A program made the position numbers and the translations under genes. This document shows positions 1-13,707 of a stretch of DNA of 64,000 bases, piece by piece. The notes beneath the pieces were generated by a model. It saw only the letters and a program-made list of their open reading frames with translations. It was not told the origin of the DNA and searched no databases. The first letter of the stretch is position 1. Each line of letters starts with the position of its first letter. The DNA is taken from contig JAPLME010000002.1 in NCBI GenBank assembly GCA_026387175.1, positions 12,780 to 76,779 of the forward strand, in the 5' to 3' direction. This DNA comes from Candidatus Omnitrophota bacterium (GTDB lineage: Bacteria; Omnitrophota; Gorgyraeia; 2-01-FULL-45-10).

Positions 1-2
1 CA

Positions 3-263
3 TTTACTTTGGCGCTTCACAAGATTTCTGGCTTTGAAGGGCCTCTATTAATAGATACGCCAGTTGCTAGAGTTGATGATGACAATCGAAAAAACATGGG
101 CAATGTGTTACTCTCAATCAGTTCTCAAAAACAAGTCATACTTCTTTTTACACCAGTTGAATATACTGGAAGTATAAAGACTGTGCTAGAACTCAAAACG
201 AATAATAAGTATAAATTGGTGATGGATGGCTCAGAAAGAGAAACCAAAATGGAGGCCTTGTAA
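3..263 (+). CDS. C-terminal fragment (5' end outside window) of a DndD/SbcC-like ATPase; motif LLIDTPVARVDDDNRKN resembles the IDTPlgRLD Walker-B/D-loop region of DndD-family ATPases
   Basis: Reading frame is open to the window edge. The stop codon is immediately followed by the ATG of the next gene. The motif match is from memory. Confidence 0.4.
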   Translation, partial: FTLALHKISGFEGPLLIDTPVARVDDDNRKNMGNVLLSISSQKQVILLFTPVEYTGSIKTVLELKTNNKYKLVMDGSERETKMEAL

Positions 264-686
264 ATGCCGGAAGACATCATTATAGGAATCGATAATGCAG
301 ATGTTCCGTTATATGAAAAACTTAAGAAAGAAGTATTGCTTTTTGGTGACCAGGGCAATACGGAATTGCTCATGTTTGCTATTGGCTATGGCTATAAACA
401 TAATAAGCCGCTTCCGTTACGTGCAAAATATAGTGGCTTCACAAGAACCAAATATTTAAAGCCAGATGATTTAGCATTATTAAAAGCGCTCGCTTTGCAA
501 GTTGGAGGGATAGAAACGCTTAAAGATCAGTCTAGGATGGTTGAAATTGCAGAAAAATATGCACATGGTGGAATTCAATTGCTCATGCAAGAGATTGGAT
601 CATCTTCTTTAGATTCCTTTGAAATTGACTTTGAATTAAGTCTATCGCAGCATTACGATACTATTACGAATGTGCAAAATAGCTAA
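264..686 (+). CDS. hypothetical 140-aa protein, translationally coupled to the upstream ATPase fragment
   Basis: TAA-ATG junction at 261-266. AT-rich island codon usage. Confidence 0.5.
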   Translation: MPEDIIIGIDNADVPLYEKLKKEVLLFGDQGNTELLMFAIGYGYKHNKPLPLRAKYSGFTRTKYLKPDDLALLKALALQVGGIETLKDQSRMVEIAEKYAHGGIQLLMQEIGSSSLDSFEIDFELSLSQHYDTITNVQNS

Positions 687-697
687 AATAAAATGTT

Positions 698-1192
698 ATG
701 GATGCTGAACTAATTCCACAATTTAGTAATTTTGATGATGGCACAGTTAAGGTCGTAGAAATTCTTTATAACGAAAATGATAGAGGATTAACTTTTAACG
801 AATTAGGATGGTTTCTTCAAAGAAGATTAAAAAAAGATGGTGCCCATAAAAAATACGGTGAAAATCACGCGAAATTAGCAAACTTGCTTGGGTTTGTTAA
901 AATTAATAACTCAAGACCTAGAAATGTATTTTTATCAGCAGTAGGGAAAGAACTTCACCTCGCTCGTAATGAACAAAAGAAATTAATAATTAAAAATCAG
1001 CTACTTAACATGGCATTAATAAAAGATATTTTATCAAATTACAACGATGTATTTGACCTGAGTTTGTATTTAAAGCAAACGCTTTCAACTAAAACAGCCG
1101 TGCGCCGAATGCCTAATATTAAAAAGTTAATTCGAATACTTGCCATTGATTATAAGGTTCCAATCTTCAATGATATTTACAATGCAATGTAA
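698..1192 (+). CDS. hypothetical 164-aa protein, third gene of the putative three-gene operon
   Basis: ATG 11 nt after the previous stop. Long ORF. Confidence 0.5.
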   Translation: MDAELIPQFSNFDDGTVKVVEILYNENDRGLTFNELGWFLQRRLKKDGAHKKYGENHAKLANLLGFVKINNSRPRNVFLSAVGKELHLARNEQKKLIIKNQLLNMALIKDILSNYNDVFDLSLYLKQTLSTKTAVRRMPNIKKLIRILAIDYKVPIFNDIYNAM

Positions 1193-1197
1193 TAAGT

Positions 1198-1256
1198 GGA
1201 CGGTCTAGAAAGTGCCAGCCCATAAAATTATAGGGTGGAACCAAATGGACCGTCCC
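1198..1256 (+). repeat. Intergenic repeat family 2, copy D: AGAAAGTGCCAGCCCATAAAATTATAGGG core flanked by the inverted repeat GGACGGTC / GACCGTCC
   Basis: Near-identical module recurs at 2273-2322. Confidence 0.6.
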
Positions 1257-1278
1257 TGATAAAACAAAAAGAATTTAT

Positions 1279-2160
1279 ATGATTAAAATCAAATATAAAC
1301 TAGCTAAAAAAAGAATCCCACCAATGTTATGGGACGAATATGTCCACATAGCAAAAAGTGAATATGAAACGCTCCTTAACAAACAAGAATCGGGCGAAGC
1401 AGTTTTTCATAAATTCTTTGAACGGCATCCCTCCTTTATTCCTGGAGGATGTGACCTTGATGATGGCTCGGGGCATGCGCCGTATGCGCTGTCTTTAATT
1501 TCAAAACCAGGGCTATCTGGATCCTTTGAGAGAATACCTGATTTTTTATGGCTGGCTTCTTATTCGGGAGTTTTTCATCCTATATTCATCGAAATAGAAT
1601 CGCCAGGTAAGAGGGTTTTTAATGTGGACGGTAGCGCAACGAAAAAATTTAATCAGGCCGTGGATCAGCTACGCTATTGGAAAATATGGATAGAAGAGCC
1701 TTCTAATATTAGCATTTTAATGAAAAAGTTCGGATTAGATAAAACATATTTAGCAGACAACAAGTTTGTGCCGAAATTTCTCCTGATCTATGGCAGGCGT
1801 GCCGAGTTTACGTCTAATAAAATGCGAAAGAAGCTAAGGGAAGAGTTTCTGTGTGGCATAGGGACGATTAGAAGTTATGACGGGCTCATACCTTCACATA
1901 AGTGTAAAGATTGTTTTAGCGTTAAAATTACTGAGAATGGGTATGAGGCTATAGAGGTAATGCCTACTATCGAAATCTGTCCGGCGTCCGCGGATAGTTA
2001 TAGCCTTATTACTGGTAAGGATCAGGCTATAAAGAAAAATAAATATATATCAAAGGCAAGAAAGGAATTCCTGATAGATCGTTTCAAATATTGGGATAAT
2101 TGGGTTATATCGACACCTTCCAGTGCGCGGGGCGTTTTTAATGGAAGAGATGTTGAGTGA
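1279..2160 (+). CDS. DUF4263/Shedu-like PD-(D/E)xK nuclease-fold protein (candidate)
   Basis: 293-aa ORF. IPDF...IEIESPGK matches the PD...ExK pattern. N-terminal FHKFFERHP region. The family call is from memory, not a search. Confidence 0.4.
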   Translation: MIKIKYKLAKKRIPPMLWDEYVHIAKSEYETLLNKQESGEAVFHKFFERHPSFIPGGCDLDDGSGHAPYALSLISKPGLSGSFERIPDFLWLASYSGVFHPIFIEIESPGKRVFNVDGSATKKFNQAVDQLRYWKIWIEEPSNISILMKKFGLDKTYLADNKFVPKFLLIYGRRAEFTSNKMRKKLREEFLCGIGTIRSYDGLIPSHKCKDCFSVKITENGYEAIEVMPTIEICPASADSYSLITGKDQAIKKNKYISKARKEFLIDRFKYWDNWVISTPSSARGVFNGRDVE

Positions 2161-2220
2161 GTTGGGAATAAAGAGTTTTTTTGTCGGAATTGTTTACGCT
2201 TAAGTTGGGAAATAGGAATT

Positions 2221-2322
2221 GTGCCACTCTCAAATCGCAGGTTGGCACTAAGTGTAAAATTGGGGAAGGCCCAGAAAGTGCCAGACCATAAAATTATAGG
2301 GGGCATCGAATGGATCGTCCCT
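2221..2322 (+). repeat. Intergenic repeat family 2, copy A: hairpin GTGCCACTCTCAAATCGCAGGTTGGCAC followed by AGAAAGTGCCAGACCATAAAATTATAGGG module
   Basis: Hairpin half is homologous to 3536-3563. Module half is homologous to 1207-1256. Confidence 0.6.
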
Positions 2323-2387
2323 AAGAGTACCTATACAGCATGCCGTCTCTAAAACGAAACAAACGGCATCGGCCCGTCAATTTATAG

Positions 2388-2906
2388 GTGAGCGCCATGA
2401 TTACAATAGACTCAAATATTATAACAGCTTGGGCCACTCTAATAGGTGTTTTGGTGGCTATTTGGGCTGTGATATATCAAAACAAAAGATCTACATTTGC
2501 ATTAGGCGTAGATTTAATTATGAAGCTAGACGATCGTTTTAATAGTGAGAAAATGCGTAAAGCCAGATGTGCAGCAGCTACATCATTACTTAATGGAAAT
2601 ATTTCTGATGCTACTGAAGTGTTAGATTTTTTTGAAACAATAGGATATTTTATTCGTAGAGGAGCGCTCGATAAGAAGACAGTATGGCAAATATTTTTTT
2701 ATTGGGCAAACAATTATTGGCATTCCGCAAAAGAATATATAGAGCAAGAAAGAAGAGGCGATCCCACAGTTTGGGCGAATATTCCCTATCTTCATTCTGT
2801 GCTTATGTTGATTGAAAAGCGTGAACGACGATGCGGGGATTCAGCTATATTGCTTACAAAAGAAAAGATTAATAACTTCCTTAATGAAGAAACTAGGCTA
2901 TCCTAA
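2388..2906 (+). CDS. hypothetical protein with N-terminal transmembrane anchor (172 aa)
   Basis: Hydrophobic segment ITAWATLIGVLVAIWAVIY. Long ORF. Confidence 0.5.
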   Translation: MSAMITIDSNIITAWATLIGVLVAIWAVIYQNKRSTFALGVDLIMKLDDRFNSEKMRKARCAAATSLLNGNISDATEVLDFFETIGYFIRRGALDKKTVWQIFFYWANNYWHSAKEYIEQERRGDPTVWANIPYLHSVLMLIEKRERRCGDSAILLTKEKINNFLNEETRLS

Positions 2907-2923
2907 AATAGCTGAAAATCATT

Positions 2924-3502
2924 ATGAACAATTTAAAAAAATATAGCAAAATTAGATCAAGAATGCAAAATGGAGACGTGATTGCTTTTCAGGGTACGGA
3001 TTTTCCTGCCATGGCTGTACAAAACACCACTGGAAGTCAATTTTCTCATGTTGGGTTAGTTATTAGAATTACAGATGTAGATATTGATAGAATTTTTATA
3101 ATAGAGTCAGTTCCATCGGCCGGAGTTGTGCTTCTCCCATTAAGCCGAAAGCTATATACATTTCCTGGTAGAGCATGGTGGGCTCCTTTACGGTTTTCTA
3201 AAATATCAAATAATATGTTACCGCAACTTAACGAACAAAAAGTACGTTCTATTATTTATAAATGGGCAATGTGCGAACTCGGTAAAGCATACGATTTTAC
3301 AATGATAGGATCTATTATAAAAAGCATTCTATTAAAGTGCAAAGCTTCAGAAGAAGATTGTCGGGAATATATTTGTTCGGAACTTGTTGCCCAAGCTTTT
3401 AAACAGGGCCAAATCTGGCCCAAAGGCATGAACATATCTAACATTACGCCTGTGGATATCATCAATTTGCCAATAATAGATGCGCTGGTCGAGCTTTACT
3501 AA
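2924..3502 (+). CDS. permuted papain-fold hydrolase candidate (YiiX/DUF830-like, NlpC/P60 superfamily)
   Basis: His in SHVGLVI precedes Cys in ICSELVAQAF, which is the permuted order. Only 18 nt after the previous gene. Confidence 0.4.
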   Translation: MNNLKKYSKIRSRMQNGDVIAFQGTDFPAMAVQNTTGSQFSHVGLVIRITDVDIDRIFIIESVPSAGVVLLPLSRKLYTFPGRAWWAPLRFSKISNNMLPQLNEQKVRSIIYKWAMCELGKAYDFTMIGSIIKSILLKCKASEEDCREYICSELVAQAFKQGQIWPKGMNISNITPVDIINLPIIDALVELY

Positions 3503-3519
3503 ACTAAATAAGAAAGAAT

Positions 3520-3563
3520 GGTGGCATATTCGAAGGTGCCACCCTCAAAGCGCAGACTGGCAC
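3520..3563 (+). repeat. Intergenic repeat family 2, copy B: nested hairpins GGTGGCA..TGCCACC and GTGCCACCCTCAAAGCGCAGACTGGCAC
   Basis: 25 of 28 nt identical to the hairpin at 2221-2248. Confidence 0.6.
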
Positions 3564-3607
3564 TAAGTAGCATGACACCAAAAGAACATAAAAAGAAGGA
3601 GGAGTAA

Positions 3608-3712
3608 ATGGGCGATAAAGGCAAGAAGGATAAGGATAAACACAACAAGCAAGCAGAGCAAGCAAAGAACGAAGCAAACAAGAAGAAACAGCCAACAATC
3701 AAGCATACTTGA
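3608..3712 (+). CDS. small lysine-rich peptide (34 aa, MGDKGKKDKDKHNKQAEQAKNEANKKKQPTIKHT)
   Basis: Strong SD AAGGAGGAG 5 nt upstream of the ATG. Below the 60-aa cutoff of the ORF track. Could be a low-complexity artefact. Confidence 0.3.
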   Translation: MGDKGKKDKDKHNKQAEQAKNEANKKKQPTIKHT

Positions 3713-3779
3713 GATTCGGCAAGCACTAAAGCTGAGGATCTGTTGAAGTAAGAGTCAAATAACAGACGTCCTATAAAGT

Positions 3780-3840
3780 GACACCCTGATAATAGGGTGC
3801 TACAAAGTAGGATGTCTACAAGATGCGTAGGCTGGCACTA
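3780..3840 (+). repeat. Intergenic repeat family 2, copy C: hairpin GACACCCTGATAATAGGGTGC plus a TGGCAC-containing segment
   Basis: Shares the GCTGGCACTA motif with copies A and B. Confidence 0.4.
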
Positions 3841-3872
3841 TTTAGGATGGTACCAAAAGAATTTAACATACA

Positions 3873-4625
3873 ATGCTTGAATTCTTAGCACCATTAATAT
3901 TTATCTGTATTATCTTCTTCCTATTCAGGATTCTTTTCCTCAGTTGGGTATCCGGCGAGGAGGGGGTAGCTAGGAAGCTTGAGTCCTTGCGAAGAATAAA
4001 CAAAGAATACCACCCATTCAATAATATCATATTGAAAACTCCAGATGGAACTACGCAGATCGATCATATATTAATATCTCCTTACGGAATATTTGTAATT
4101 GAAACTAAAGATTTTAAAGGATGGATTTTTGGTGATGCACATCAAAAGAAATGGACTCAATCTCTTTTTGGCTCCAGACGCTCTTCTATTAAGTACCAAT
4201 TTCAGAATCCGATCCGCCAAAATTATAAGCATGTAAAGGCCGCTCAAGACTTCCTAGATATTGATTCGAAATCCATATTTAATGTGGTCGTATTTACTGG
4301 AACGAGCGAATTTAAGACAGATATGCCAGAAAATGTTTTAAAATTGCATGATCTTCTCCCATGTATTAAACTCCAAACAAAAATATTATTTACTAGTGAA
4401 AAAGTAGAAGCGCTTTCGCAAAAACTTAGGGATTACGTTGAACACGCTTCCTATAATGAGGAAGATCATTTTAAAAACATTGTAAATAATATGATGCATC
4501 CAATCTGTCCCAGATGTGGCAAGCCGATGGTTCTTCGAAAGGCGAGAAAGGGGGCTGGGGCAGGTTCCGAATTTTGGGGATGCCCCAATTTTCCCGAATG
4601 CAGGATAACAAAGAACGTGGCCTAA
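3873..4625 (+). CDS. NERD (nuclease-related domain) protein with C-terminal topoisomerase-type C4 zinc ribbon
   Basis: DHILISPYGIFVIETKDFKG NERD core. CPRCG...GCPNFPEC zinc ribbon. Confidence 0.75.
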   Translation: MLEFLAPLIFICIIFFLFRILFLSWVSGEEGVARKLESLRRINKEYHPFNNIILKTPDGTTQIDHILISPYGIFVIETKDFKGWIFGDAHQKKWTQSLFGSRRSSIKYQFQNPIRQNYKHVKAAQDFLDIDSKSIFNVVVFTGTSEFKTDMPENVLKLHDLLPCIKLQTKILFTSEKVEALSQKLRDYVEHASYNEEDHFKNIVNNMMHPICPRCGKPMVLRKARKGAGAGSEFWGCPNFPECRITKNVA

Positions 4626-4675
4626 CGAAAACCAAGGAATAATTAGGCCAGCGCCCATTAAATAAAGGAGACCAC

Positions 4676-4747
4676 ATGCCCGAAGGAGGATTCTTAGTAA
4701 AGATTAACGGCAAGGAGCTGTGCCGTTGTTATGCGATAGCGTTCTGA
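4676..4747 (+). CDS. possible 23-aa peptide MPEGGFLVKINGKELCRCYAIAF
   Basis: AAGGAG SD 7 nt upstream of the ATG. Very short, so speculative. Confidence 0.15.
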   Translation: MPEGGFLVKINGKELCRCYAIAF

Positions 4748-4804
4748 AGATACCGAAAGCATAGCCATCGAAATTGAATAAACTATTAGGGCGGCCGTAA
4801 AAAT

Positions 4805-4856
4805 GGGACAGTCCCGACCTCGCTGAGATTACGGTCCCGGGACAGTCCCTATTTTT
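4805..4856 (+). terminator. Rho-independent terminator formed by two copies of the palindrome GGGACAGTCCC followed by TATTTTT
   Basis: Same GGGACWGTCCC pair occurs at 25969-26022. Confidence 0.5.
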
Positions 4857-4857
4857 C

Positions 4858-4954
4858 CACCGTAACCCGTGCTATGGCGCGGGTTTTTTATTGGAATTAT
4901 TTTAAAATAGTTTGCAACTATTTTGGCACTTTTAGCGTCTTTATATGTAGGGGG
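4858..4954 (+). repeat. Island repeat family 1, copy 1: CCCGTGCTAWGGCGCGGG hairpin + T-tract + TATTTTAAAATA palindrome + TTTGCAACNATTTTGGCACTTTTAGCGTCTTTATATGTAGGGGG
   Basis: About 90% identical to 5951-6048 and 12888-12983. Confidence 0.85.
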
Positions 4955-5076: not shown

Positions 5077-5424
5077 ATGAGGAAGAAAATGCCGGAATTT
5101 AAATCAGAAGAAGAGGAGGCGCTTTTTTGGAGCAAACACAGCCCCCTCGATTACCCTGATGAAGCTAAAGCGGCAGAAAAACCTTTCGAATTTGCTATGT
5201 ATCTTCTTAAGCGCGCCGCAAAAGAACACAAAGAGAAAAAGCGTTTGCTGACATTTAGAATGGAGCAAAGCCAAATATTGCTGGCAAAGATTATTGCTAA
5301 AAAATATGGCGATAATTATCAAAGTTTGTTACGGAAATGGATCAGGGAACGAATTTATGAAGAGATAAAAGGAAATCCAAATATCGCAAAGGATGTTAGG
5401 AAGCAGAATTTGCGATTGGTATAA
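5077..5424 (+). CDS. BrnA-like antitoxin (RHH-type, type II TA antitoxin family); orphan, with no BrnT-like toxin upstream
   Basis: N-terminal MPEFKSEEEEALFWSKHSPLDY is the BrnA signature. 115 aa. Confidence 0.6.
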   Translation: MRKKMPEFKSEEEEALFWSKHSPLDYPDEAKAAEKPFEFAMYLLKRAAKEHKEKKRLLTFRMEQSQILLAKIIAKKYGDNYQSLLRKWIRERIYEEIKGNPNIAKDVRKQNLRLV

Positions 5425-5498
5425 GACAGAGAAATAGGTAATAACGGGGCCATCCTGCGCGGGGACACCCTAGATTGCAGGCTACCTCCAGATAACAT

Positions 5499-5918
5499 AT
5501 GAAAATACTAACCGAAAAGATCAGAGTAGATACTAAAGAAGCGAAGGATCTCGTAAATATAACGGGTGAGGTCGCGGATATCCTGAAGGGCTCGGGCCTT
5601 AAAAAGGGGAATGTCACAGTGTTTGTAGTCGGTTCGACCGCGGCCATAACGACATTCGAATACGAGAACGGCATGATAAAGGATATGCAGGATCTCTGCG
5701 AGAAGCTGGTGCCGTCAAATAAGCATTATAATCACGATGAGACCTGGGGAGACGCGAACGGATTCAGCCACCTTAGGGCCGCTCTCTTTGGCCCATCGCT
5801 CACGATACCGTTCGAAGGCGGCAAGCTGTCTCTCGGCACATGGCAGCAGGTGGTCCTGGCGGAATTCGATAACCGTCCGCGTAATCGCGAGATAATTGTT
5901 CAGATGATAGGGGAGTAA
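5499..5918 (+). CDS. yjbQ: YjbQ/UPF0047 family protein (secondary thiamine-phosphate synthase-like)
   Basis: Full-length similarity to YjbQ. Motifs NHDETWGD, HLRAALFGPSLTIPFEGGKLSLGTWQ. Confidence 0.85.
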   Translation: MKILTEKIRVDTKEAKDLVNITGEVADILKGSGLKKGNVTVFVVGSTAAITTFEYENGMIKDMQDLCEKLVPSNKHYNHDETWGDANGFSHLRAALFGPSLTIPFEGGKLSLGTWQQVVLAEFDNRPRNREIIVQMIGE

Positions 5919-5950: not shown

Positions 5951-6048
5951 GACCGCAACCCGTGCTAAGGCGCGGGTTTTTTATTTTGAACTATTTTAAA
6001 ATAGTTTGCAACAATTTTGGCACTTTTAGCGTCTTTATATGTAGGGGG
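5951..6048 (+). repeat. Island repeat family 1, copy 2
   Basis: See 4858-4954. Confidence 0.85.
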
Positions 6049-6134: not shown

Positions 6135-7157
6135 ATGCTTAATAATTACCACATTTTTTTATCGAGTTTAAAGGAAAAGATACGAAAAGAGCGCTTGCGG
6201 GTTGTTCTCGCAAGCAATGCGGCGTTAGTGATGTTGTATTGGGATATAGGCCGGAGTATATTGAAAAAACAAAATGAAGAAGGATGGGGCTCAAGGGTTA
6301 TTGACCGGCTTTCATCGGATTTAAGCAGAGAATTCCCGGATATGAAAGGATTTTCACCAAGAAATCTAAAATATATGCGCTCGTTCGGTATCGCATGGCC
6401 GGATAAGCTAATTGTGCAACGGGTCATTGCACAATTACCATGGCGCAGTAACATAGCTTTAATAGATAAGCTTAAAAAGCCCGAAGAACGTTTATGGTAT
6501 GCGATGAAAACCATAAAGCATGGCTGGTCGCAACCGATTCTTTGTTTACAGATAGAGGCACAAGCTCATAAGCGTGAGGGTAAGGCAACCAATAATTTTT
6601 CACTGGCACTTACATCGGTTGACTCGGATATGGCCAAAGAGGTATTCAAGGATCCATATTTATTCGATTTTTTAGGAACCGCCGATATACGCAGAGAAAA
6701 AGAAGTTGAACAGGCATTGGTGGATCATATACAACGATTCTTGCTGGAATTGGGGCAGGGATTCGCTTTTGTTGGCAGACAGGTTCATCTTGAGCTTGGT
6801 GGAAATGATTATTATATTGATTTGCTTTTTTATCACCTTAAATTGAGGTGCTACATAATTATTGAACTTAAGGCAGGAGATTTTGTCCCGGAATATGTGG
6901 GAAAGATGAACATGTATCTAAGCGTTGTGGATGATATTCTACGGCATCCTGATGATAACCCAAGCATTGGACTGTTGCTTGTAAAACGAAAAAACAAAAT
7001 GATCGCTGAATATGCTTTGAGTGGTTACACAAAACCTATAGGTGTAGCGCAGTGGGAAACAAAAATAACCAAAAGCTTACCTAAAGAACTTAAGTCGAAC
7101 CTTCCAGCTATTGAAGAGATCGAGAAAGAGTTAAGTAAGGGCAAATTTATGCCATAA
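6135..7157 (+). CDS. YhcG/DUF1016 family PD-(D/E)xK nuclease-like protein
   Basis: YIDLLFYHLKLRCYIIIELKAGDF is the characteristic DUF1016 core. Confidence 0.8.
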   Translation: MLNNYHIFLSSLKEKIRKERLRVVLASNAALVMLYWDIGRSILKKQNEEGWGSRVIDRLSSDLSREFPDMKGFSPRNLKYMRSFGIAWPDKLIVQRVIAQLPWRSNIALIDKLKKPEERLWYAMKTIKHGWSQPILCLQIEAQAHKREGKATNNFSLALTSVDSDMAKEVFKDPYLFDFLGTADIRREKEVEQALVDHIQRFLLELGQGFAFVGRQVHLELGGNDYYIDLLFYHLKLRCYIIIELKAGDFVPEYVGKMNMYLSVVDDILRHPDDNPSIGLLLVKRKNKMIAEYALSGYTKPIGVAQWETKITKSLPKELKSNLPAIEEIEKELSKGKFMP

Positions 7158-7163
7158 TTACCC

Positions 7164-7198
7164 CATGGCGCGGGTTTTTTATTGGAATTATTTTACAT
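7164..7198 (+). repeat. Island repeat family 1, truncated copy 3 (hairpin remnant GGCGCGGG + TTTTTTATTGGAATTATTTTA only)
   Basis: Matches the left third of the full repeat. Confidence 0.6.
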
Positions 7199-7286: not shown

Positions 7287-10200
7287 ATGATTACCTATAA
7301 GCATAGATATAACCTACTATTTAAAGCTATCGCAGCAGCTGTAGTGTTTCTATTTGTAGCTAATGACATAGCCTGGACTCAGCTTTCCAATTGTGACTCT
7401 TCGAAAAGTTCTACACTTGCCCCCCTTGCAGGTAATCCTCAAGTATATAGCGCAATGCGCCAGATGATGGAAGAAGAACGTGTTCTACACCGGGAAGACA
7501 TGGATGAGGTCATAGAACGGCACGCTAAGAATGCAAAGGATCTATTCGATGCTTCCTCTCTAGAAGATCTCAAGAAAGAGTTTATGGAGCGCATTGTTGA
7601 TTGCGGCGCTAATAACATGCTGTCAAGGCTAAAGGCAACACTAGCTTCCACGGGAGGACAGGTTCAGGTCATATTCGTGAAGAGTGAAGATGAGCTGCCG
7701 GTATTTGAAGGAAAGAAAGTGTGGGGGCATGCCGGCACTTCCGTTACAGCATTTGCATTAGAAAGCGAGAAGGATTCAAAAGAAGGAAGAAGAGAGATAA
7801 TCGCAAGGCTCTTTCACGAGATAAGGGCGAGATCGACCTTAGCCGGTGAATTCGCGAACCTTACTTTTGCCACCCATGTAAATGCCATTAATAGAATTCC
7901 GCCGGTTACGGAAGCGAAGCCCGTGCCGCAGGCTATCGATATTACTAAACCCCTCCTTGTAGTTTTTGATCTGCATGGAACCCTCCTTAAGCCGAGCTGG
8001 AAAGAAGCTCACGCCTTAGCCTATGCAAAAATAAAAGATGTAAGCCAGGAAGAAGCGCTCATATGGCTGGAGAACCTTCCGCTTAAGCGCCTAAGATATG
8101 AGTTCATACAATTACTTTCCCAGGCCACCGGTGTTTCGGAGGCCAAGGCGCGAGAATATCTGAAATGGGCCCAGAAACACTGCGCGAGGATAAAGACGCC
8201 TGAGGTTATGCCCGGAGCGTTGGAATTTATGGAGGCGTTATATAAAAAAGGCGTGCCTATGGTCATTATTAGCGGATCTAAGAGAGATGTTGTAATGGAT
8301 CAACTCAGAGAACGCGGGTTTCTCAAATTCATTCCTGCAGAGATGGTGGTCTCCAGGGATGATGTCGCGCTTTCCGCTCCTCGTGCTAAAAATGATTCAC
8401 GATTCCGTGAGGCCGCTATCGAAAGCTTAACATATAAATTTCAGGGTTACCGCCTCGCGCACTTTAATGACTGGGTCGGCGGCATCCGATCCGTGAAGAA
8501 GCGCGGGGGTATAGCCTTTGGCCTGCCACAGGGCGAAGGAGAGGAAAAGGATTTGAACAGCGCGGCTATGGAGAAAGAAGGCGCTGATTTAATGATAAAT
8601 GGATGGCATAACTGGAAGGAGATCCTGGCCGGTTTACAGATCAATGAGAAGTTACAAAAAGAAAATAGGCGAGTCCCGGTTTATCTTAAGAAGGCAAAGG
8701 AGCTGCAGCTTGTGCTTCCTGCCCGGCGGCCGGATAAGTTAACCCTATTTATCGATGTAAGCGATGACCTTAGAGAATTAACATATTATGAAGTGGAAGA
8801 TGACGACGGGGTGATGAGGTATGACGGCAGTATTGATTATGGCCGGCTTAAATTAAGAAAGATCTGCCGCTTACCTAGCTCTTATCTTATTTCTCCGGAA
8901 AGATACATGAATAAGCACCTTACCGGCGAGGCGAAGGCCAGTATTTACCGTGTCTGGCCTCAAGGTAAGCGCTATACGCGGTATCGTAATATCATTACCT
9001 CCTGGGACAAAGAGGTTGACAGAGATGTCTGGACGACAAATATCGATACTGTCTATCTGCACAAATGCATTGAAGATTCCGGACTTCTGGATTTCGGAGG
9101 TATCAGCCGCGCAATCGAAATAGGTACAGGCGGAGGGCATCTGTCTGTATTGCTTGCCTCCCGGATTCCCAACTTAAAAGAAATTATCATTACAGACATC
9201 AGCATGTACGCCCTAGAGGCAGCCAAGCGGGTTATCATGCCCTTCATGAATAAAGGCTTGCGCCTGCGGACCTATTTAGGCAAAGGTTTAGGCACGATAA
9301 GGGAGGCAAAAGCGGATCTGGTCGTTGTCAATCCGCCGTATATTCCCACCCCGCCATTTATACAAGGCCGGCACGTCGATCCTTACCGCGGCACCGGCCT
9401 GATCAGGGAAGTGCTGGAGAAAGGGATCTATAAACTCAATCCCAAAAATCCAAATGCCTGTATCGTTATGAATGTAAGTTCAATGGCGCAAAAACAATTT
9501 CAGGAATATACCCGGGAGTTCGGCGATAACCTTACGGTGGAGAAATTCGGCGAGCCGCTCAGGGTGCCTCTTAAAATCAGCGGTATCACCGATGAGTGGC
9601 GACAATGGCTGGTTAATGAGGGAGGATTGGAATATAGTCCGAATTGCGCGGAAGACGAAGAGCCGTATCATCACACGCTTCAGGCTTATATTATCAAGCC
9701 AAGATCGGGAGCGGTGAAGACCTGGGCGGTAAAAGAGAAGGATAAGATAGAGTCGAATATTTATACGGATACAGACGCAATGATCAGGCTATTCCGGCCG
9801 CTATTGAATCCGCAAGCCACCCCGGAAGAGAATGAATTAAAGTTAAGATTCCCCGAGATCTACGGCTATCTCCTGCTGCGCCCGGAGGAGATGAATTTTG
9901 ACGCCGCGCCGGCCCCACTCGCGCCGGAAAGAAATCTGACGTTTACCAATCATATCCTTAAGCGCGGGTTTGGCAGGAAATTACTTGGTTTAGAGAATGA
10001 GGATTTTGAACTATTTCAAAAGGGACTCGGGGTCCAGGAGGCAGAATTCACGCGCCTATGCCGGATCGTCAGCGCCCTAAAAGATACCGATATTCTTCCT
10101 TATATCCGCTGCGCATTTCTTTATCATGATGTGGCTAAGGCGCAGCTGCCGGAATTAAAGAAAGAGTGGGAAAAGCTTCCCGGAATCGATTTCCGTATTT

Positions 10201-12803
10201 CGAATAAGGCCTCGGCGATAATTTTGCGTAACTTGTCTTCTCGGGCAAGCCGGAGAAAGGGGCTGTTTGAAAATATCGATCTGTTTAACAAGCACCCACA
10301 CAATGAAATTTTAAATGAATTCTTCTATCGTATTATTGAGACCCGCGGTTTTGCCGGACAGCAAATAAGGGGGGAGCTTTCTTACGATGTGTTTGAGGAT
10401 TTCACCCGATGGATACGCGACAACTTTTCAGAACTTCAAACTGCGCTTGGGTTTGAAAATAGAGACGCTCAGGCATGCTCCGATGGGATAACAGATATAA
10501 TATATCTTTTCAATTTCATTGATGCGGCGAGTTTGCGCGAAGGCCTGATGACCACGCGGCTAAACGAGAAGTTCCGGGAATTCTTCGCTGATTTCCGGAA
10601 GGTGATCACACCTTCTGCCGGCAATTTACCGGTTAACTGGCGGAATATATTGTCCGACCGCTGGAATGACTTTAGGACGACCTATGACCAGCGCAATTAT
10701 TTGAAGGATCGCCTAGGCCGGTTCCGCCAGGAGAGGCGCGATCTGGGCGAGAATGAATCGGAATTAAATGAATTTATCGATTCGATGAGCCCCGAGGCAG
10801 TTAAAGTTTTGACGCGGGATCTACAGCATTTTCAGGGTTGGTATGTGGAGAGCGCAACCTTTGGACTGACCCCGGAGGCGATGCTGAAGATCGTAATGCT
10901 TTCCATTGTCCTGGCAAAGCGTAAAGGCGCGGATTTGACCCGGCCATTTCATGTTAATTTCTTTAATCTTATGCGCATGCTTTCATCCGACCGGCACGAT
11001 TTTGATTCTTACCGCATCCGGATGGTTGAAACATTAGTGCGCGACCTTGATCTCGACGATATCATCCTAAAACCGGAGGTTGCCGGCCGCTTAGATCTAG
11101 ACGCCGATGATCAGTCGCGAGCCCAGCCGTTATTGGGTGCCGTGAGCATGGCGGTTAACGGTACGAAGTCCATCTCTTTCGATTTCCATTTCAGCGAAGA
11201 GGCGGAACACCTCCTCCACCTGGTGCATAAATACGAAAAGAGCGATTCGGTGAAATTCCACCAGGTCTTAAAGTTGCTCCTGGACGCCTATGGTATCCGT
11301 AAAGATGAATTTGACCGTGTAAGCAATGAAGCCTCATATCTTAATACTATGGCCTTATCCAAAAATGACAAGACGCGCTTATTGCGTTACGGAAAAGGCC
11401 CAGTTTGGGTGGATATCGGACCGGCGGACGGGGTAACCCTGGAGATCGCCGAGATGATGAAAGAAGAGAAAGGCCTTGAGAATATCGTCGCGGTGGAAAA
11501 ATCGCAGGAAGCGATTAACGCCCTGCGAAGAAGAATAAAACTAAAGAGTCTCTCCGCCATGGCTTTAAAAGGGGATGCCCGCGATTTGACGGATATTTTG
11601 GAGAATGCCGGAATTAAGTCCTCGAATACTATCATTTTTTCCGCCGTGCTGCATGAGATTTTCAGTTACGCCGGTAAAGACGGCCGCAGTTTTAATATTG
11701 AGACGGTAAAAGATGTGTTGCGTGCCGCGCTGCGCTCTCTCGCGCCCGGCGGCCGGCTTTTAATCCGCGACGGGCTTATTCCCGAAGATGGCGAAGAGAC
11801 GCAGATCTTGGAGTTAAAAGGCAGGAACAATAAAGAGGTCTTTGACTATTATGTAAGGAACTTTGCCGGCAGGGACCTCTCCCGCGCGTATGAGGTAATC
11901 GACGAGGATACATCAGGCGAGATTTATCGCATTCGCATGAAACGCAAGGACGTGATGGAATTTCTCTTTACGCTTACCTGGTGCTATCGGCCGCAATTTA
12001 GCCCTGACAGCCTGCCATATGAGGTAAGGGAACAGTATGGTGTCTTAACGCGAAGCGGTTATATTAAACTTATTCAGGAACTTGCCCGCGAAGAGAATAT
12101 AGACATGCGCGAAGTCGAAATGCCGGAAGATGAACGAACCTATATTCAGCAGGGCTATGTCGATAACCTGAAAGGAATCGCCCGGCTGATGACGCTCGAT
12201 GGCAAGGAAGCCCCCTTGCCGCCCAGCAATATGATGATCGTTGTAGAAAAAACCGATAAGGCTATGCCGCCGCCGATCGCGTTTGAAAAAGAGTGGGAGG
12301 CGTCGCGGTTGGATGCCGGCCAATTCCTTTCGGCGCTGTCTCCTATACTTGGATTAGAAACGGTTATAGACCATAATAAACCGATATTTGTATTTTCGGA
12401 AAAAGTCGCGTTCGATAATAATCTGGTAAGATGTCTTCCGAAACTTGCGGAGAAAGATATAAAGGTAGCGGTAATAGTCAAGGCTGATAATTATAAGGCA
12501 AAGGCTTTGATAGACAAATTGAATGAGGGCAAGACTGAGGATAAAAAGATCCTCCAGGCCGACACAATTGATGGTATAAGAAAAGCGGCGGCAGACGCAA
12601 AGATCTCCGCGCCAAGATTTTATTATTTCAGGATAAAAGATAGCGAAGATCCGGCATTTGAAGGACGCAATATCACGATGTATGATTTGACGCCTGATAT
12701 GGTCAAAAGAATAATAGACGCTATCGGCACTGCTTGCGGCGTAGAAATTGAGAAACTCCCGCTCCTTCAAGAACTAGCGCATAAGTTTGCGGAAGCCGCA
12801 TAA
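7287..12803 (+). CDS. Giant 1838-aa multidomain protein with N-terminal hydrophobic anchor. Domains: HAD-like hydrolase (VVFDLHGTLL / ISGSKRD / FNDWVGG); gamma-class NPPY methyltransferase, HemK/PrmC-like (IEIGTGGGHLSVLL ... VVVNPPYIP); weak HD-like motif (AFLYHDVAK); second class-I SAM methyltransferase (VWVDIGPADGVTLEIAE ... IIFSAVLHEI ... LAPGGRLLIRD)
   Basis: Uninterrupted 5.5-kb ORF. Motifs read directly from the translation. Confidence 0.8.
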   Translation: MITYKHRYNLLFKAIAAAVVFLFVANDIAWTQLSNCDSSKSSTLAPLAGNPQVYSAMRQMMEEERVLHREDMDEVIERHAKNAKDLFDASSLEDLKKEFMERIVDCGANNMLSRLKATLASTGGQVQVIFVKSEDELPVFEGKKVWGHAGTSVTAFALESEKDSKEGRREIIARLFHEIRARSTLAGEFANLTFATHVNAINRIPPVTEAKPVPQAIDITKPLLVVFDLHGTLLKPSWKEAHALAYAKIKDVSQEEALIWLENLPLKRLRYEFIQLLSQATGVSEAKAREYLKWAQKHCARIKTPEVMPGALEFMEALYKKGVPMVIISGSKRDVVMDQLRERGFLKFIPAEMVVSRDDVALSAPRAKNDSRFREAAIESLTYKFQGYRLAHFNDWVGGIRSVKKRGGIAFGLPQGEGEEKDLNSAAMEKEGADLMINGWHNWKEILAGLQINEKLQKENRRVPVYLKKAKELQLVLPARRPDKLTLFIDVSDDLRELTYYEVEDDDGVMRYDGSIDYGRLKLRKICRLPSSYLISPERYMNKHLTGEAKASIYRVWPQGKRYTRYRNIITSWDKEVDRDVWTTNIDTVYLHKCIEDSGLLDFGGISRAIEIGTGGGHLSVLLASRIPNLKEIIITDISMYALEAAKRVIMPFMNKGLRLRTYLGKGLGTIREAKADLVVVNPPYIPTPPFIQGRHVDPYRGTGLIREVLEKGIYKLNPKNPNACIVMNVSSMAQKQFQEYTREFGDNLTVEKFGEPLRVPLKISGITDEWRQWLVNEGGLEYSPNCAEDEEPYHHTLQAYIIKPRSGAVKTWAVKEKDKIESNIYTDTDAMIRLFRPLLNPQATPEENELKLRFPEIYGYLLLRPEEMNFDAAPAPLAPERNLTFTNHILKRGFGRKLLGLENEDFELFQKGLGVQEAEFTRLCRIVSALKDTDILPYIRCAFLYHDVAKAQLPELKKEWEKLPGIDFRISNKASAIILRNLSSRASRRKGLFENIDLFNKHPHNEILNEFFYRIIETRGFAGQQIRGELSYDVFEDFTRWIRDNFSELQTALGFENRDAQACSDGITDIIYLFNFIDAASLREGLMTTRLNEKFREFFADFRKVITPSAGNLPVNWRNILSDRWNDFRTTYDQRNYLKDRLGRFRQERRDLGENESELNEFIDSMSPEAVKVLTRDLQHFQGWYVESATFGLTPEAMLKIVMLSIVLAKRKGADLTRPFHVNFFNLMRMLSSDRHDFDSYRIRMVETLVRDLDLDDIILKPEVAGRLDLDADDQSRAQPLLGAVSMAVNGTKSISFDFHFSEEAEHLLHLVHKYEKSDSVKFHQVLKLLLDAYGIRKDEFDRVSNEASYLNTMALSKNDKTRLLRYGKGPVWVDIGPADGVTLEIAEMMKEEKGLENIVAVEKSQEAINALRRRIKLKSLSAMALKGDARDLTDILENAGIKSSNTIIFSAVLHEIFSYAGKDGRSFNIETVKDVLRAALRSLAPGGRLLIRDGLIPEDGEETQILELKGRNNKEVFDYYVRNFAGRDLSRAYEVIDEDTSGEIYRIRMKRKDVMEFLFTLTWCYRPQFSPDSLPYEVREQYGVLTRSGYIKLIQELAREENIDMREVEMPEDERTYIQQGYVDNLKGIARLMTLDGKEAPLPPSNMMIVVEKTDKAMPPPIAFEKEWEASRLDAGQFLSALSPILGLETVIDHNKPIFVFSEKVAFDNNLVRCLPKLAEKDIKVAVIVKADNYKAKALIDKLNEGKTEDKKILQADTIDGIRKAAADAKISAPRFYYFRIKDSEDPAFEGRNITMYDLTPDMVKRIIDAIGTACGVEIEKLPLLQELAHKFAEAA

Positions 12804-12887
12804 TCTCCGGTCTTTAATCATCGGACGACAATTTATGTAATTTAGTTTTTTTGTTACATTTGCATAACATATAGGATGATGAGAGAA

Positions 12888-12983
12888 ACCGCAACCCGTG
12901 CTAAAGCGCGGGTTTTTTTATTGGAATTATTTTAAAATAGTTTGCAACAATTTTGGCACTTTTAGCGTCTTTATATGTAGGGG
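12888..12983 (+). repeat. Island repeat family 1, copy 4
   Basis: See 4858-4954. Confidence 0.85.
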
Positions 12984-13016
12984 ATGAAACGACTATATAT
13001 AAAAAAGGAGGCAAAT

Positions 13017-13520
13017 ATGAAGAATCTAATACCTCGGGAGGTTATTGAGAAGAAGATATATCTCATCAGAGGGCGAAATGTAATGCTGTCCAGTGATTTA
13101 GCAAATCTCTATGGCGTAGAAACAAAAAACCTGAATTTACAAGTTAAGAGAAACATAAAACGTTTTCCCAGGGATTTCATGTTTCAAGTGACTAAGGAAG
13201 AAAACTTGAGGTTGCAATTTGCAACCTCAAGTTATGGTGGACGCAGATATTTGCCATATGTATTTACGGAGCAGGGCATCGCGATGCTTTCAGGCATACT
13301 CAATAGCGAACGTGCTATCGAGGTGAATATAGCTATTATGCGGGCGTTTGTGCGATTGAGGGAGATTTTGCTGACACATAAGGACCTCGCCGATAAAATT
13401 GCAGCTCTTGAACTTAAGTATAAAAATCATGATCTGAGGCTTTCGGAATATGATAAGCACATAACGGCCATTTTTGATGCGATCCGACAGCTTATGGCAC
13501 CACCGTCAGAACTCCCTTAA
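13017..13520 (+). CDS. ORF6N/KilA-N domain protein (phage antirepressor-like DNA-binding domain)
   Basis: LQFATSSYGGRRYLPYVFTEQGIAMLSGIL ORF6N core. Start moved to ATG 13017, which has the AAAAAGGAGG SD. The track's start at 12984 lies inside the repeat. Confidence 0.8.
   Translation: MKNLIPREVIEKKIYLIRGRNVMLSSDLANLYGVETKNLNLQVKRNIKRFPRDFMFQVTKEENLRLQFATSSYGGRRYLPYVFTEQGIAMLSGILNSERAIEVNIAIMRAFVRLREILLTHKDLADKIAALELKYKNHDLRLSEYDKHITAIFDAIRQLMAPPSELP
13204..13230 (+). repeat. Perfect 13-1-13 palindrome CTTGAGGTTGCAA-T-TTGCAACCTCAAG inside the ORF6N coding sequence
   Basis: Second near-identical copy at 21930-21954. Confidence 0.7.
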
Positions 13521-13707
13521 TTCCACTACTCTTTGGGTTGTTTTTTGATATAATATGATACATAGACATGGCAATATTCTGGCCAAAGAAAGGTGATTAT
13601 GCGAATAATTGATGCCATATCATTAGGTATCGGTTCTTTCGGAGTCATTTAACTAAGATGAAGATAAGAAGCGGTGTTCTCGGAACCAAAAAGACGGCGG
13701 GCAATAT

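What the first reader, a model, noticed from the sequence alone, without database searches (positions are those of the whole stretch)
1..13550. Low-GC accessory island organised as same-strand cassette-like units separated by a repeated 95-bp module (4 copies)
All twelve genes before 13.5 kb are on the + strand and most encode nuclease, toxin-antitoxin or phage-related functions. A highly conserved module lies 3' of the NERD, YjbQ, YhcG (truncated copy) and giant genes, at 4858-4954, 5951-6048, 7164-7198 and 12888-12983. It consists of a CCCGTGCTAAGGCGCGGG hairpin plus T-tract, a TATTTTAAAATA palindrome, and TTTGCAACAATTTTGGCACTTTTAGCGTCTTTATATGTAGGGGG. Repeats separating one-gene units recall integron attC cassette arrays or MITE-like terminator-promoter modules. 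GC content rises sharply after 13.6 kb.
Basis: seen in the sequence. Interest (0 to 1): 0.7.

Follow-up and report, generated by a model that had tools for sequence, protein, structure and literature searches.

The report
Reused terminator-promoter module in defence island
The 95-bp repeat is real, but it is not an integron site: it is a transcription stop signal joined to a conserved promoter-like region that uncultured Omnitrophota bacteria place in front of many small defence, toxin-antitoxin and ORF6N genes.

Summary
There are three full copies (4858-4953, 5952-6047, 12888-12983) and one 31-nt remnant (7165-7195); none is expected by chance.

The integron reading fails. The repeat has no R''/R' boxes and no end-to-end fold on either strand. 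No integrase lies in the 9.3 kb recovered upstream. It also has no terminal inverted repeats or target duplications, so it is not a MITE.

The source is a Candidatus Omnitrophota genome assembled from a metagenome. The left third of the module is a lineage-specific intrinsic terminator. The right ~60 nt is conserved across Omnitrophota and always points at the next gene, 18-130 nt before its ATG.

Nineteen copies from about nine genomes (some copies are orthologous) share this pattern: an A/T tract, TGCAAY, exactly 17 nt with a variable centre, CRTCTT, then ATATA..GGGG. This matches an ECF-sigma-type promoter. It usually precedes ORF6N genes, but also HigBA-like and BrnA-like genes, a Fic-like gene, a YhcG nuclease, CopG-YjbQ and a RayT-like transposase. 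Another genome (L027) has four same-strand copies separating toxin-antitoxin cassettes.

The best reading is a portable terminator-promoter module reused throughout a low-GC defence island of at least 22.8 kb. Promoter activity and the mechanism of spread are inferred, not shown.

The parts
4858..4953 (+). Module copy 1. Terminator hairpin 4864-4885 plus T-run; A/T near-palindrome about 4895-4912; -35-like TGCAAC 4913-4918; 17-nt spacer; -10-like CGTCTT 4936-4941; ends in GTAGGGG. It lies after the NERD unit and before CopG-like plus YjbQ.
5952..6047 (+). Module copy 2. Terminator 5957-5978; perfect palindrome AACTATTTTAAAATAGTT; TGCAAC 6007-6012; CGTCTT 6030-6035. It lies after YjbQ and before YhcG.
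12888..12983 (+). Module copy 3. Terminator 12893-12914; TGCAAC 12943-12948; CGTCTT 12966-12971. It lies after the giant gene, 34 nt before the ORF6N start codon. Its sequence is a mosaic of copies 1 and 2.
7165..7195 (+). Decayed copy. It is 31 nt, identical to 4874-4904: the right arm of the terminator stem, the T-run and the left half of the A/T palindrome. It starts in the terminator loop and ends in the centre of the palindrome (..TTATTTTA|). The promoter-like half is missing.
3873..4625 (+). NERD nuclease domain plus topoisomerase-type zinc ribbon gene. It is followed by its own small hairpins (GGGACAGTCCC twice, 4805-4850) and then module copy 1.
5077..5918 (+). Two-gene unit: CopG-antitoxin-like (5077-5424) plus YjbQ/UPF0047 (5499-5918). 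It is bounded by copies 1 and 2 and also has its own sigma-70-like promoter at 5012-5040.
6135..7157 (+). YhcG/DUF1016 PD-(D/E)xK nuclease, matching the PADLOC candidate defence family PDC-S02. It is bounded by copy 2 and the 31-nt remnant.
7287..12803 (+). Gene for a 1838-aa protein with HAD hydrolase and two methyltransferase regions (mad2-like in PADLOC). It has its own strong sigma-70-like promoter at 7251-7278 (TTGACT, 16 nt, TGCTATAAT).
13017..13520 (+). ORF6N (KilA-N-like DNA-binding) gene, the usual partner of the module in Omnitrophota. The true start is 13017, behind the RBS AAAGGAGG. It is 9 aa shorter than its relatives and contains a perfect palindrome at 13203-13233.
1..3872 (+). 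Left part of the island inside the window: tail of a DndD-like ATPase (9-263), dnd-associated protein 4 (264-686), a 164-aa ORF, Shedu SduA (1279-2160), DUF4760 and a C92 amidase. These units are separated by a different, genome-specific repeat family (1198-1244/2264-2310, 2221-2253/3536-3568, 3550-3591/3825-3866).

Best explanation
Each copy is a composite intergenic control module, not a recombination site.

**Left third.** The stem AACCCGTGC/GCGCGGGTT plus a T-run is a Rho-independent terminator that ends transcription of the upstream unit. This part is specific to this genome.

**Right ~60 nt.** This is the promoter region that Omnitrophota normally place in front of ORF6N genes. It has an A/T-rich, UP-element-like tract (ACTATTTTAAAATA) that is often palindromic, so it may also serve as an operator. 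Next comes a two-box promoter: TGCAAY, exactly 17 nt, then CRTCTT. This is the ECF-sigma type. Transcription is predicted to start in the ATATA stretch, just before the final GGGG, which in some copies doubles as the ribosome-binding site.

**Effect (inferred).** The module would insulate each unit from its neighbour. It would put unrelated accessory genes under one alternative sigma factor. In this island those genes are CopG-YjbQ, the YhcG nuclease, ORF6N and, 7 kb upstream of the window, a Fic-like ATPase gene.

**Origin (inferred).** The copies most likely arose by duplication and homologous recombination of ORF6N-type units derived from mobile elements, a case of promoter propagation. The 7165-7195 remnant is a decayed copy whose promoter half was replaced by the giant gene's own sigma-70 promoter.

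**Shown versus inferred.** Shown: the repeat, the terminator anatomy, the box-like conservation, the orientation and distance to genes, and the recurrence in other genomes. Inferred: promoter activity, the sigma factor class, and how the copies spread.
For: - **Terminator.** All three full copies are called as intrinsic terminators (9-bp stem, 6 GC pairs, T-run) directly after coding regions.
- **Conservation pattern.** An alignment of 19 copies from about nine Omnitrophota genomes has invariant TGCAA, C.TCT and A/T-tract columns. There is no indel between the two boxes, so the spacing is always 17. The six central spacer bases vary freely (TGGCAC, AGCCCC, CACCTC, TGCCTT, GCCTCC...). The only length change lies after CRTCTT.
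- **Literature match.** TGCAAC-N17-CGTCTT matches the form of Streptomyces sigma-E (ECF) target promoters in Table 1 of PMC6767563, most of them predicted from ChIP-seq peaks, e.g. GGCAAC-N17-CGTCTT.
- **Not the housekeeping promoter.** The housekeeping type in this genome is ordinary: TTGACT-16-TGCTATAAT at 7251-7278 and an extended -10 (TGATATAAT) at about 13545-13553, before the first core gene.
- **Orientation and distance.** Every copy points at the next gene and ends 18-130 nt before its ATG. This includes the one inverted copy, L012 1881-1909(-), which drives a minus-strand Fic-like gene. In L026 the final GGAGGG sits 7 nt before the ATG.
- **Specificity.** TGCAAY-N17-CGTCTT occurs 3 times in the window, all inside the module, against 0 expected. 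A profile search finds no copy in the 50 kb of core sequence.
- **Diverse downstream genes.** These are ORF6N (11 of the 19 copies), HigB/HigA-like, BrnA-like, small gene sets, Fic-like, YhcG, CopG-YjbQ and RayT-like.
- **Same layout elsewhere.** L027 has four same-strand copies separating toxin-antitoxin cassettes.
- **Homologous recombination.** Related strains L027 and L028 are 100% identical to the right of a point inside a gene, and diverged to the left of it, where they carry a different module variant.
Against: - There are no transcript data, so promoter activity and the start site are inferred from sequence alone.
- The last base of the -35-like box varies (C, T or G), although the AAC triplet is normally critical for ECF promoters. 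Some copies have CATC instead of CGTC.
- No ECF sigma or anti-sigma gene lies next to any array. The one exception is a weak FecR hit in L031.
- The AATTT and TTTT blocks inside the spacer and the ATATA..GGGG block after the -10-like box are more conserved than a plain two-box promoter needs. Something else may bind there.
- All non-ORF6N units begin within a few bases of the same point, right after GGGG. Random promoter duplication would not obviously give this, and it leaves room for a site-directed insertion process.
- Several instances are orthologous or close relatives, so the 19 copies are not independent.
Confidence: 0.6

Rival explanations
1. The module is a site for a site-specific recombinase, either Xer/dif-like or an unknown tyrosine recombinase acting in trans. 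Cassettes would enter as circles and leave one module copy on each side, as with IMEX elements or dif modules.
For: - The cassettes are flanked by direct copies.
- The upstream copy in L012 contains a perfect 28-bp palindrome with 11-6-11 geometry: TTGCAAACTAT-TTTAAA-ATAGTTTGCAA.
- In L011 both palindrome arms have changed together (TTGCAGATT...AATCTGCAA).
- The 31-nt remnant ends exactly in the centre of the palindrome.
- All non-ORF6N units start at the same point after GGGG.
Against: - The palindrome is imperfect or absent in many copies (L018, L031, L032).
- Its sequence does not resemble the dif consensus (my own knowledge).
- No gene in the 10-kb flanks of the arrays has a recombinase-family Pfam hit on record.
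- The only strain-to-strain breakpoint I could map lies inside a gene, not in the module.
- The best-conserved blocks lie outside the palindrome and are spaced like promoter boxes.
- The left edge of the duplicated segment differs between genomes: the terminator is included here but not in L027.
Confidence: 0.15
2. The island is an integron-type cassette array (sedentary chromosomal integron or CALIN), and the repeat is its attC site.
For: One- to two-gene units lie on the same strand, are rich in toxin-antitoxin and nuclease genes, and are separated by a highly similar repeat at the 3' end of each unit. This resembles VCR arrays.
Against: - No RYYYAAC/GTTRRRY boxes lie at the repeat ends. The only strict pair in the island is at 3861-3949, which is unrelated.
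- Neither strand forms the R''-L''/L'-R' hairpin.
- There is no consensus structure across 19 copies.
- There is no intI within 9.3 kb upstream, and I saw none when reading the window's ORF translations.
- In other genomes the conserved part lies 5' of genes, without the terminator part.
Confidence: 0.03
3. The repeat is a non-autonomous transposable element (MITE, REP or Correia-like) that happens to carry a terminator and an outward-facing promoter.
For: It is a short element conserved between different genomes. One copy sits next to a RayT-like Y1 transposase that is flanked by REP hairpins (L010).
Against: - It has no terminal inverted repeats and no target-site duplications.
- The left boundary differs between genomes.
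- The element is always co-oriented with the downstream gene.
- No copy lies in 50 kb of core sequence.
- The REP hairpins around the L010 transposase are unrelated in sequence to the module.
Confidence: 0.05
4. The conserved right half is mainly an operator for a DNA-binding protein such as ORF6N itself. Transcription would start from another promoter, and the two 'boxes' are protein contact sites rather than sigma contacts.
For: - ORF6N is a KilA-N-like DNA-binding domain, and at least one ORF6N gene accompanies every array seen.
- ORF6N genes carry their own conserved palindromes, so the family is rich in cis sites.
- The spacer flanks and the post-box ATATA..GGGG block are unusually conserved.
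Against: - Several genes (ORF6N in W3, L018 and L026; the Fic-like gene in L012) have no other promoter-like sequence between the module and the ATG. Only 18-35 nt remain.
- The fixed 17-nt spacing with a free centre is the signature of sigma contacts.
- This reading is compatible with the best explanation (promoter plus operator) rather than exclusive of it.
Confidence: 0.15

Closest known systems
Putative mobile promoters / promoter propagation (Matus-Garcia et al. 2012, PMC3488235)
   Same: Nearly identical upstream regions sit in front of non-homologous genes, both within one genome and across genomes, and rewire the expression of accessory genes.
   Different: Here the propagated unit is fused to a terminator. 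It forms ordered same-strand arrays inside defence and toxin-antitoxin islands. It is conserved across the Omnitrophota genomes sampled, has one consistent right-hand boundary, and has a recognisable home gene (ORF6N).
ECF sigma factor promoters (e.g. Streptomyces sigma-E, B. subtilis sigma-M/V/W/X)
   Same: The layout is the same: a -35 element ending in AAC (TGCAAC), a 17-nt spacer and a -10 element CGTCTT (PMC6767563).
   Different: No cognate sigma or anti-sigma gene has been identified. The -35-like box is sometimes AAT or AAG. The flanks are extra conserved. The target genes are mobile, defence and toxin-antitoxin genes rather than envelope genes.
Integron cassette arrays with attC sites (Vibrio VCR-type sedentary integrons)
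   Same: The array is same-strand, its small cassettes are rich in toxin-antitoxin genes, and they are separated by a highly similar repeat. As with Pc/attI, genes sit right after a promoter.
   Different: There are no R boxes, no attC fold and no intI. The repeat supplies a promoter to each unit, instead of one Pc promoter serving the whole array.
Correia elements (Neisseria) and other intergenic repeats that carry promoters or terminators
   Same: They are short intergenic repeats that provide a terminator and a promoter to neighbouring genes.
   Different: Correia elements have terminal inverted repeats and TA target duplications and are scattered genome-wide. This module has neither feature and is confined to accessory islands in the sequence examined.
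CIMEs / tandem decayed integrative elements at tRNA genes
   Same: In L033 and L034, [module-ORF6N] units sit in tandem after tRNA-Ser(GGA). Each is preceded by a remnant that looks like a tRNA 3' end, and there is no integrase.
   Different: In the window the copies are not next to a tRNA gene or a tRNA fragment, and the repeated segment is the promoter region, not an att core.

Membership tests
Integron attC site / cassette array | R'' (RYYYAAC) and R' (GTTRRRY) core boxes at the two ends of the repeat | tested here: not met
   A regex scan finds one strict pair in the island (3861-3949), unrelated to the module. No single box lies at any copy's ends.
Integron attC site / cassette array | The single strand folds into an imperfect hairpin that pairs the two ends (R''-L''/L'-R') with extrahelical bases | tested here: not met
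   DNA folds of both strands of all three copies give only the terminator stem and a 7-9-bp A/T hairpin; two of the three copies fold no better than shuffled sequence. RNAalifold on 19 copies predicts 0 pairs.
Integron attC site / cassette array | An integron integrase (intI) with attI next to the array | tested here: inconclusive
   No integrase is annotated in the 9.3 kb upstream (L012). I saw none when reading the window's ORF translations; genes beyond about 26 kb were not scanned with Pfam. No gene within 10 kb of the L027 array has a recombinase-family Pfam hit on record. The left edge of the island was not reached.
MITE / REP-type mobile repeat | Terminal inverted repeats and target-site duplications | tested here: not met
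   The ends ACCGCAACCC... and ...ATGTAGGGG are not complementary, and the flanks of the three copies share no duplication.
MITE / REP-type mobile repeat | Many copies dispersed among ordinary genes | tested here: not met
   No copy lies in 50 kb of core sequence, and four lie in the 22.8-kb island. The whole genome was not available.
Intrinsic (Rho-independent) terminator | A G+C-rich hairpin directly followed by a T-run, downstream of a coding region | tested here: met
   The 9-bp stem has 6 GC pairs and a 4-nt loop, followed by TTTTTT(T). It is present in all three full copies.
ECF-sigma-type promoter | A -35 element containing AAC, a 16-17-nt spacer and a -10 element CGTC, placed upstream of and co-oriented with a gene | tested here: met
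   TGCAAC-N17-CGTCTT is present in all window copies. The spacing is 17 in 19 of 19 aligned copies, and the centre of the spacer varies. Variants include AAT, AAG and CATC. Published sigma-E target promoters have the same form.
ECF-sigma-type promoter | A cognate sigma factor and a mapped transcription start | not testable with these tools
   No sigma gene is annotated in the fetched loci, apart from a weak FecR hit in L031. No transcript data are available.
Putative mobile promoter (promoter propagation) | Highly similar upstream regions in front of non-homologous genes | tested here: met
   The same module precedes CopG-YjbQ, YhcG, ORF6N and a Fic-like gene in this genome. In other genomes it precedes HigBA-like, BrnA-like and RayT-like genes.
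Xer/dif-type recombination site (IMEX, dif modules) | A 28-bp 11-6-11 site resembling dif, with insertion or excision junctions at its centre | tested here: inconclusive
   Only the L012 copy has perfect 11-6-11 geometry, and its sequence does not resemble dif (my own knowledge). The remnant ends in the palindrome centre. The only mapped strain breakpoint lies inside a gene.

The most novel reading that the evidence does not exclude
The module marks a gene-capture system in Omnitrophota that has not been described. Foreign genes would be inserted at one fixed point just after a conserved promoter (after ..TAGGGG), in front of an ORF6N gene, and the promoter would be copied at each insertion. 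This would build expression-ready arrays of defence and toxin-antitoxin cassettes. It would do what an integron does, but without an integron integrase or attC sites. The ORF6N protein or the ORF6N-linked palindromes might take part.
Probability: 0.12. Interest if true: 0.8.

Novelty: new variant of a known kind. Interest (0 to 1): 0.42.

Why it matters
Omnitrophota are an uncultured phylum, and my literature searches found nothing about their promoters. A ~60-nt promoter-like motif shared across many of their genomes would be a first handle on regulation in the phylum. It almost always sits in front of mobile, toxin-antitoxin and defence genes.

- It predicts a regulon of accessory genes under one alternative sigma factor.
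- It gives a simple sequence tag for finding accessory islands in genomes assembled from metagenomes.
- It shows how newly acquired genes can get ready-made expression and insulation signals.
- It is a caution for genome scans: a repeat-punctuated, same-strand cassette array can look like an integron without being one.

Tried and rejected
- **Known RNA families.** An Rfam scan of 1-14000 at E<=1 gave only sub-threshold hits on the terminator hairpin (Leu leader, MicX, OmrA-B). I rejected a known RNA family.
- **tRNA-derived att site.** The window has no tRNA gene or tRNA fragment near the copies.
- **Sigma-54 promoter.** The TGGCAC in the window's spacer suggested this, but the GG-to-GC distance is 8 nt rather than 10, and TGGCAC is absent from most other genomes' copies.
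- **Sigma-70 promoter using TTGCAA and TATAGT/TATATG.** The spacing would be 23-24 nt and is not constant.
- **Genome scans.** A search of GTDB genomes for a 25-mer of the module and a search for relatives of the flanking 970-aa protein both returned nothing.
- **Viral contigs, phages and plasmids.** Neither the exact 25-mer nor the degenerate consensus matched, and BLAST found nothing. Viral ORF6N relatives (~50% identity) lack the module.
- **ORF6N gene remnants beside copies 1 and 2.** None were found by tblastn. The left edge of the module (TTCCACCGTAA) resembles an ORF6N 3' end (TTCCATCCGTAA), but this is too weak to use.
- **YjbQ cassette boundaries.** The closest relative (L035) shares only the coding sequence at 76% identity and no flanks.
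- **Logan contigs ending inside the module** (L001-L004, L012). These reflect the repeat breaking the assembly graph and are not evidence for alternative junctions.
Full report

Yes. The repeat finder reports a three-member family of 96 nt at 4858-4953, 5952-6047 and 12888-12983. The copies are 76-95% identical. A 31-nt segment at 7165-7195 is identical to 4874-4904.

The 43-nt right-hand block occurs three times with at most 1 mismatch. The 29-nt left-centre block occurs twice exactly. Shuffled sequence gives 0 matches in both cases.

All three full copies are called as intrinsic terminators: a 9-bp stem with 6 GC pairs, a 4-nt loop and a T-run.

Pfam confirms the flanking genes:
- NERD plus zinc ribbon (3873-4625)
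- CopG-like (5077-5424) plus YjbQ (5499-5918)
- YhcG/DUF1016 (6135-7157)
- a 1838-aa HAD/methyltransferase protein (7287-12803)
- ORF6N, with its true start at 13017 behind an AAAGGAGG ribosome-binding site

Two statements need qualifying. Nearly every gene in the 64-kb window is on the + strand, so strand bias does not define the island. The GC step is uneven: 0.387 for 1-7200, 0.477 for the giant gene and 0.493 for the core.

**2. Source and extent of the island**

The ORF6N protein is 100% identical to a protein from a Candidatus Omnitrophica genome assembled from a metagenome, on an 85-kb contig.

A Logan contig (L012) is identical to window 1-4903 and extends 9,303 nt further upstream at GC 0.389. 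That stretch encodes:
- a DUF4062-HATPase_c_4-Fic_C protein and a short ORF6N, both on the minus strand
- an HTH protein
- an NmeDI-type restriction enzyme
- a DEAD helicase
- a DndD/SMC-like ATPase and a dnd-associated protein

It contains no integrase. Inside the window, PADLOC adds Shedu SduA (1279-2160), the candidate defence family PDC-S02 (YhcG) and a mad2-like methyltransferase region in the giant protein. This is therefore a defence and toxin-antitoxin island of at least 22.8 kb. Its left end was not reached.

**3. Tests of the integron and MITE readings**

A regex for RYYYAAC, 35-150 nt, GTTRRRY finds one pair in the island (3861-3949), unrelated to the repeat. No single R box lies at a copy's ends.

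Folding both strands of each copy as single-stranded DNA gives only the terminator stem and a short A/T hairpin. The two ends never pair, and two of the three copies fold no better than shuffled sequence. A 19-copy alignment has no consensus structure at all. Rfam has nothing above threshold.

The copies have no terminal inverted repeats and no target duplications. Both readings fail on their defining features.

**4. What the module is**

A metagenome scan with a 22-mer found two unrelated contigs. Only the right half of the module is present in them, directly upstream of a RayT-like Y1 transposase (L010) and of an ORF6N gene (L011).

Fetching contigs for ORF6N homologues gave many more copies. 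The family has thousands of members, and every named hit but one (Bacteroidota) is labelled Omnitrophota. A profile of the ~65-nt right part finds the following:
- a copy before almost every ORF6N gene
- an inverted copy in L012 that faces the minus-strand Fic-like gene
- four same-strand copies in L027

The four L027 copies (9001-9062, 9901-9961, 10544-10605, 11516-11569) separate a three-gene unit, ORF6N, a HigB/HigA-like pair and a BrnA-like unit. This is the same layout as in the window.

The terminator part is not shared with other genomes, so it is a local addition.

**5. Anatomy of the conserved part**

The 19-copy alignment reads: an A/T tract (ACTATTTTAAAATA), TGCAA(C/T/G), AATTT, six free bases, TTTT, two free bases, C(G/A)TCTT, (T)ATATA, then GGGG.

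No indel occurs between TGCAA and CRTCTT, so the spacing is 17 nt in all 19 copies. The only length change lies after CRTCTT. Two fixed boxes, a fixed distance and a free centre are the pattern expected of sigma-factor contacts.

TGCAAC-N17-CGTCTT has the same form as Streptomyces sigma-E (ECF) target promoters in Table 1 of PMC6767563, most of them predicted from ChIP-seq peaks, such as GGCAAC-N17-CGTCTT. The A/T tract sits where an UP element would sit (my own knowledge).

The genome's ordinary promoters look like standard sigma-70 sites. Examples are TTGACT-16-TGCTATAAT at 7251-7278, TTGACA-17-TATTCT at 5012-5040, and TGATATAAT at about 13545-13553, before the first core gene. The module would therefore serve an alternative sigma factor.

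Every copy is co-oriented with the next gene and ends 18-130 nt before its ATG. In L026 the terminal GGAGGG lies 7 nt before the ATG, which suggests the final G-run can act as the ribosome-binding site.

The motif is specific. It occurs three times in the window, all within the module, against none expected. No copy lies in the 50 kb of core sequence. None was found in 2.9 million viral contigs, and BLAST found nothing in the phage or plasmid collections.

**6. How the copies spread**

Promoter function is inferred, and so is the mode of spread. Four observations bear on it.

- Related strains L027 and L028 are 100% identical to the right of a point inside an 83-aa gene. To the left they are diverged and carry a different module variant. 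That is homologous recombination, not a site-specific event.
- Window copy 3 is a mosaic. Its left edge and -35 flank resemble copy 2, and its centre resembles copy 1. This fits gene conversion.
- In L033 and L034, two tandem [module-ORF6N] units follow tRNA-Ser(GGA). Each is preceded by a remnant that looks like a tRNA 3' end. ORF6N units therefore appear to derive from decayed integrative elements.
- The 7165-7195 remnant keeps only the distal terminator arm, the T-run and half the palindrome. The giant gene brings its own sigma-70 promoter.

**7. What keeps a more exotic reading alive**

- All non-ORF6N units begin within a few bases of the same point, just after GGGG.
- In L035 two small palindromes are inserted at exactly that point.
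- The remnant ends in the centre of the A/T palindrome.
- The L012 copy holds a perfect 28-bp 11-6-11 palindrome, and in L011 the arms have changed together.

These points leave about 15% for a site-specific recombination site. They leave about 12% for a true promoter-linked gene-capture system, which overlaps that reading. No gene near the arrays has a recombinase-family Pfam hit on record.

**8. Comparison with known systems, and verdict**

The module works like a portable terminator-promoter. It fits the published idea of mobile promoters (PMC3488235), with an ECF-type box pattern (PMC6767563). It is not a member of the attC, MITE/REP or dif families on the features tested.

My literature searches found no description of this motif or of these arrays in Omnitrophota.

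I rate it a new variant of a known kind. It is of moderate interest as the first candidate promoter and regulon motif for an uncultured phylum and as a marker of its accessory islands.

Noticed in passing
window 13203-13233; also L011 522-548, L018 10187-10217, L027 10193-10223, L031 10187-10217 and 15189-15215, L032 10187-10217, L034 2566-2596 and 3537-3563, L035 1575-1605 and 3101-3125: Every ORF6N gene has a perfect 11-13-bp-stem DNA palindrome inside its coding sequence, encoding LR(S/L)Q(I/F)(A/V)TS. The palindrome stays perfect while its sequence changes (GTTGC/GCAAC, GTCAC/GTGAC, GTGCC/GGCAC, GTCGC/GCGAC), including paired amino-acid changes. This points to selection on the DNA or RNA hairpin, possibly as an operator.
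   Followed up: partly
L034 2913-2967; L035 3420-3473 and about 1302-1345; L027 11441-11475 and 11606-11634; L036-L043 just upstream of the ORF6N start: Copies of the same ORF6N-type palindrome also lie outside coding regions. They occur after ORF6N stop codons, beside a module copy, and inserted between a module and the ORF6N 5' UTR. In viral ORF6N relatives (~50% identity) they lie directly upstream of the start codon.
   Followed up: partly
L034 1887-3343 (same in L033); compare window 30919-32345: Two tandem [module-ORF6N] units follow tRNA-Ser(GGA). Each is preceded by a remnant resembling a tRNA 3' end (..TCCGCCA) and a conserved 60-nt stretch, and there is no integrase. They look like decayed tRNA-targeting integrative elements. 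The window has the same cellulase and tRNA-Ser(GGA) gene order, but the site is empty.
   Followed up: partly
window 1198-1244/2264-2310, 2221-2253/3536-3568, 3550-3591/3825-3866: A second family of intergenic repeats separates the units in the first 4 kb. It includes a GTGCCA...TGGCAC hairpin, a long GGACGGTC...GACCGTCC hairpin, and a TGGCACTNNNTAG block just before start codons. No match was found in any other fetched locus or in the rest of the window.
   Followed up: partly
window 3608-3712: A 34-aa lysine-rich ORF (MGDKGKKDKDKHNKQAEQAKNEANKKKQPTIKHT) with a strong ribosome-binding site lies between the C92 amidase and NERD genes. It is called as a gene in the Logan contigs.
   Followed up: no
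window 21886-21954 (start of ORF 21898-22287): An ORF6N-like fragment (FQL..EYEILKSQFATS), containing the palindrome-encoding motif, lies at the start of a 129-aa ORF in the otherwise core part of the window.
   Followed up: no
window 7287-12803; L032 1-9810; L026 3747-9038: In three genomes an ORF6N gene lies at or near the 3' end of a giant gene (1838, more than 8000, and 1763 aa; in L026 two small genes lie between). The window's giant protein has a weak ORF6N-like stretch near its C-terminus (11772-12101, tblastn E=0.12).
   Followed up: no
L031 about 14750-14810 and 9860-9900: Tandem 52-nt repeats duplicate the left part of the module together with a GC-rich hairpin (GGCCTCGGCCGGAGACCTCGGC). 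They look like a small insertion with a duplication inside the module.
   Followed up: no
L010 150-200 and 968-1015: A RayT-like Y1 transposase gene is flanked by paired GC-rich REP hairpins (CCACCGCCCCGGTGGGAGCAAGCTAACCCACCGACTCGGTGGG), which is a REPtron layout. The module's right half appears to serve as its promoter.
   Followed up: no
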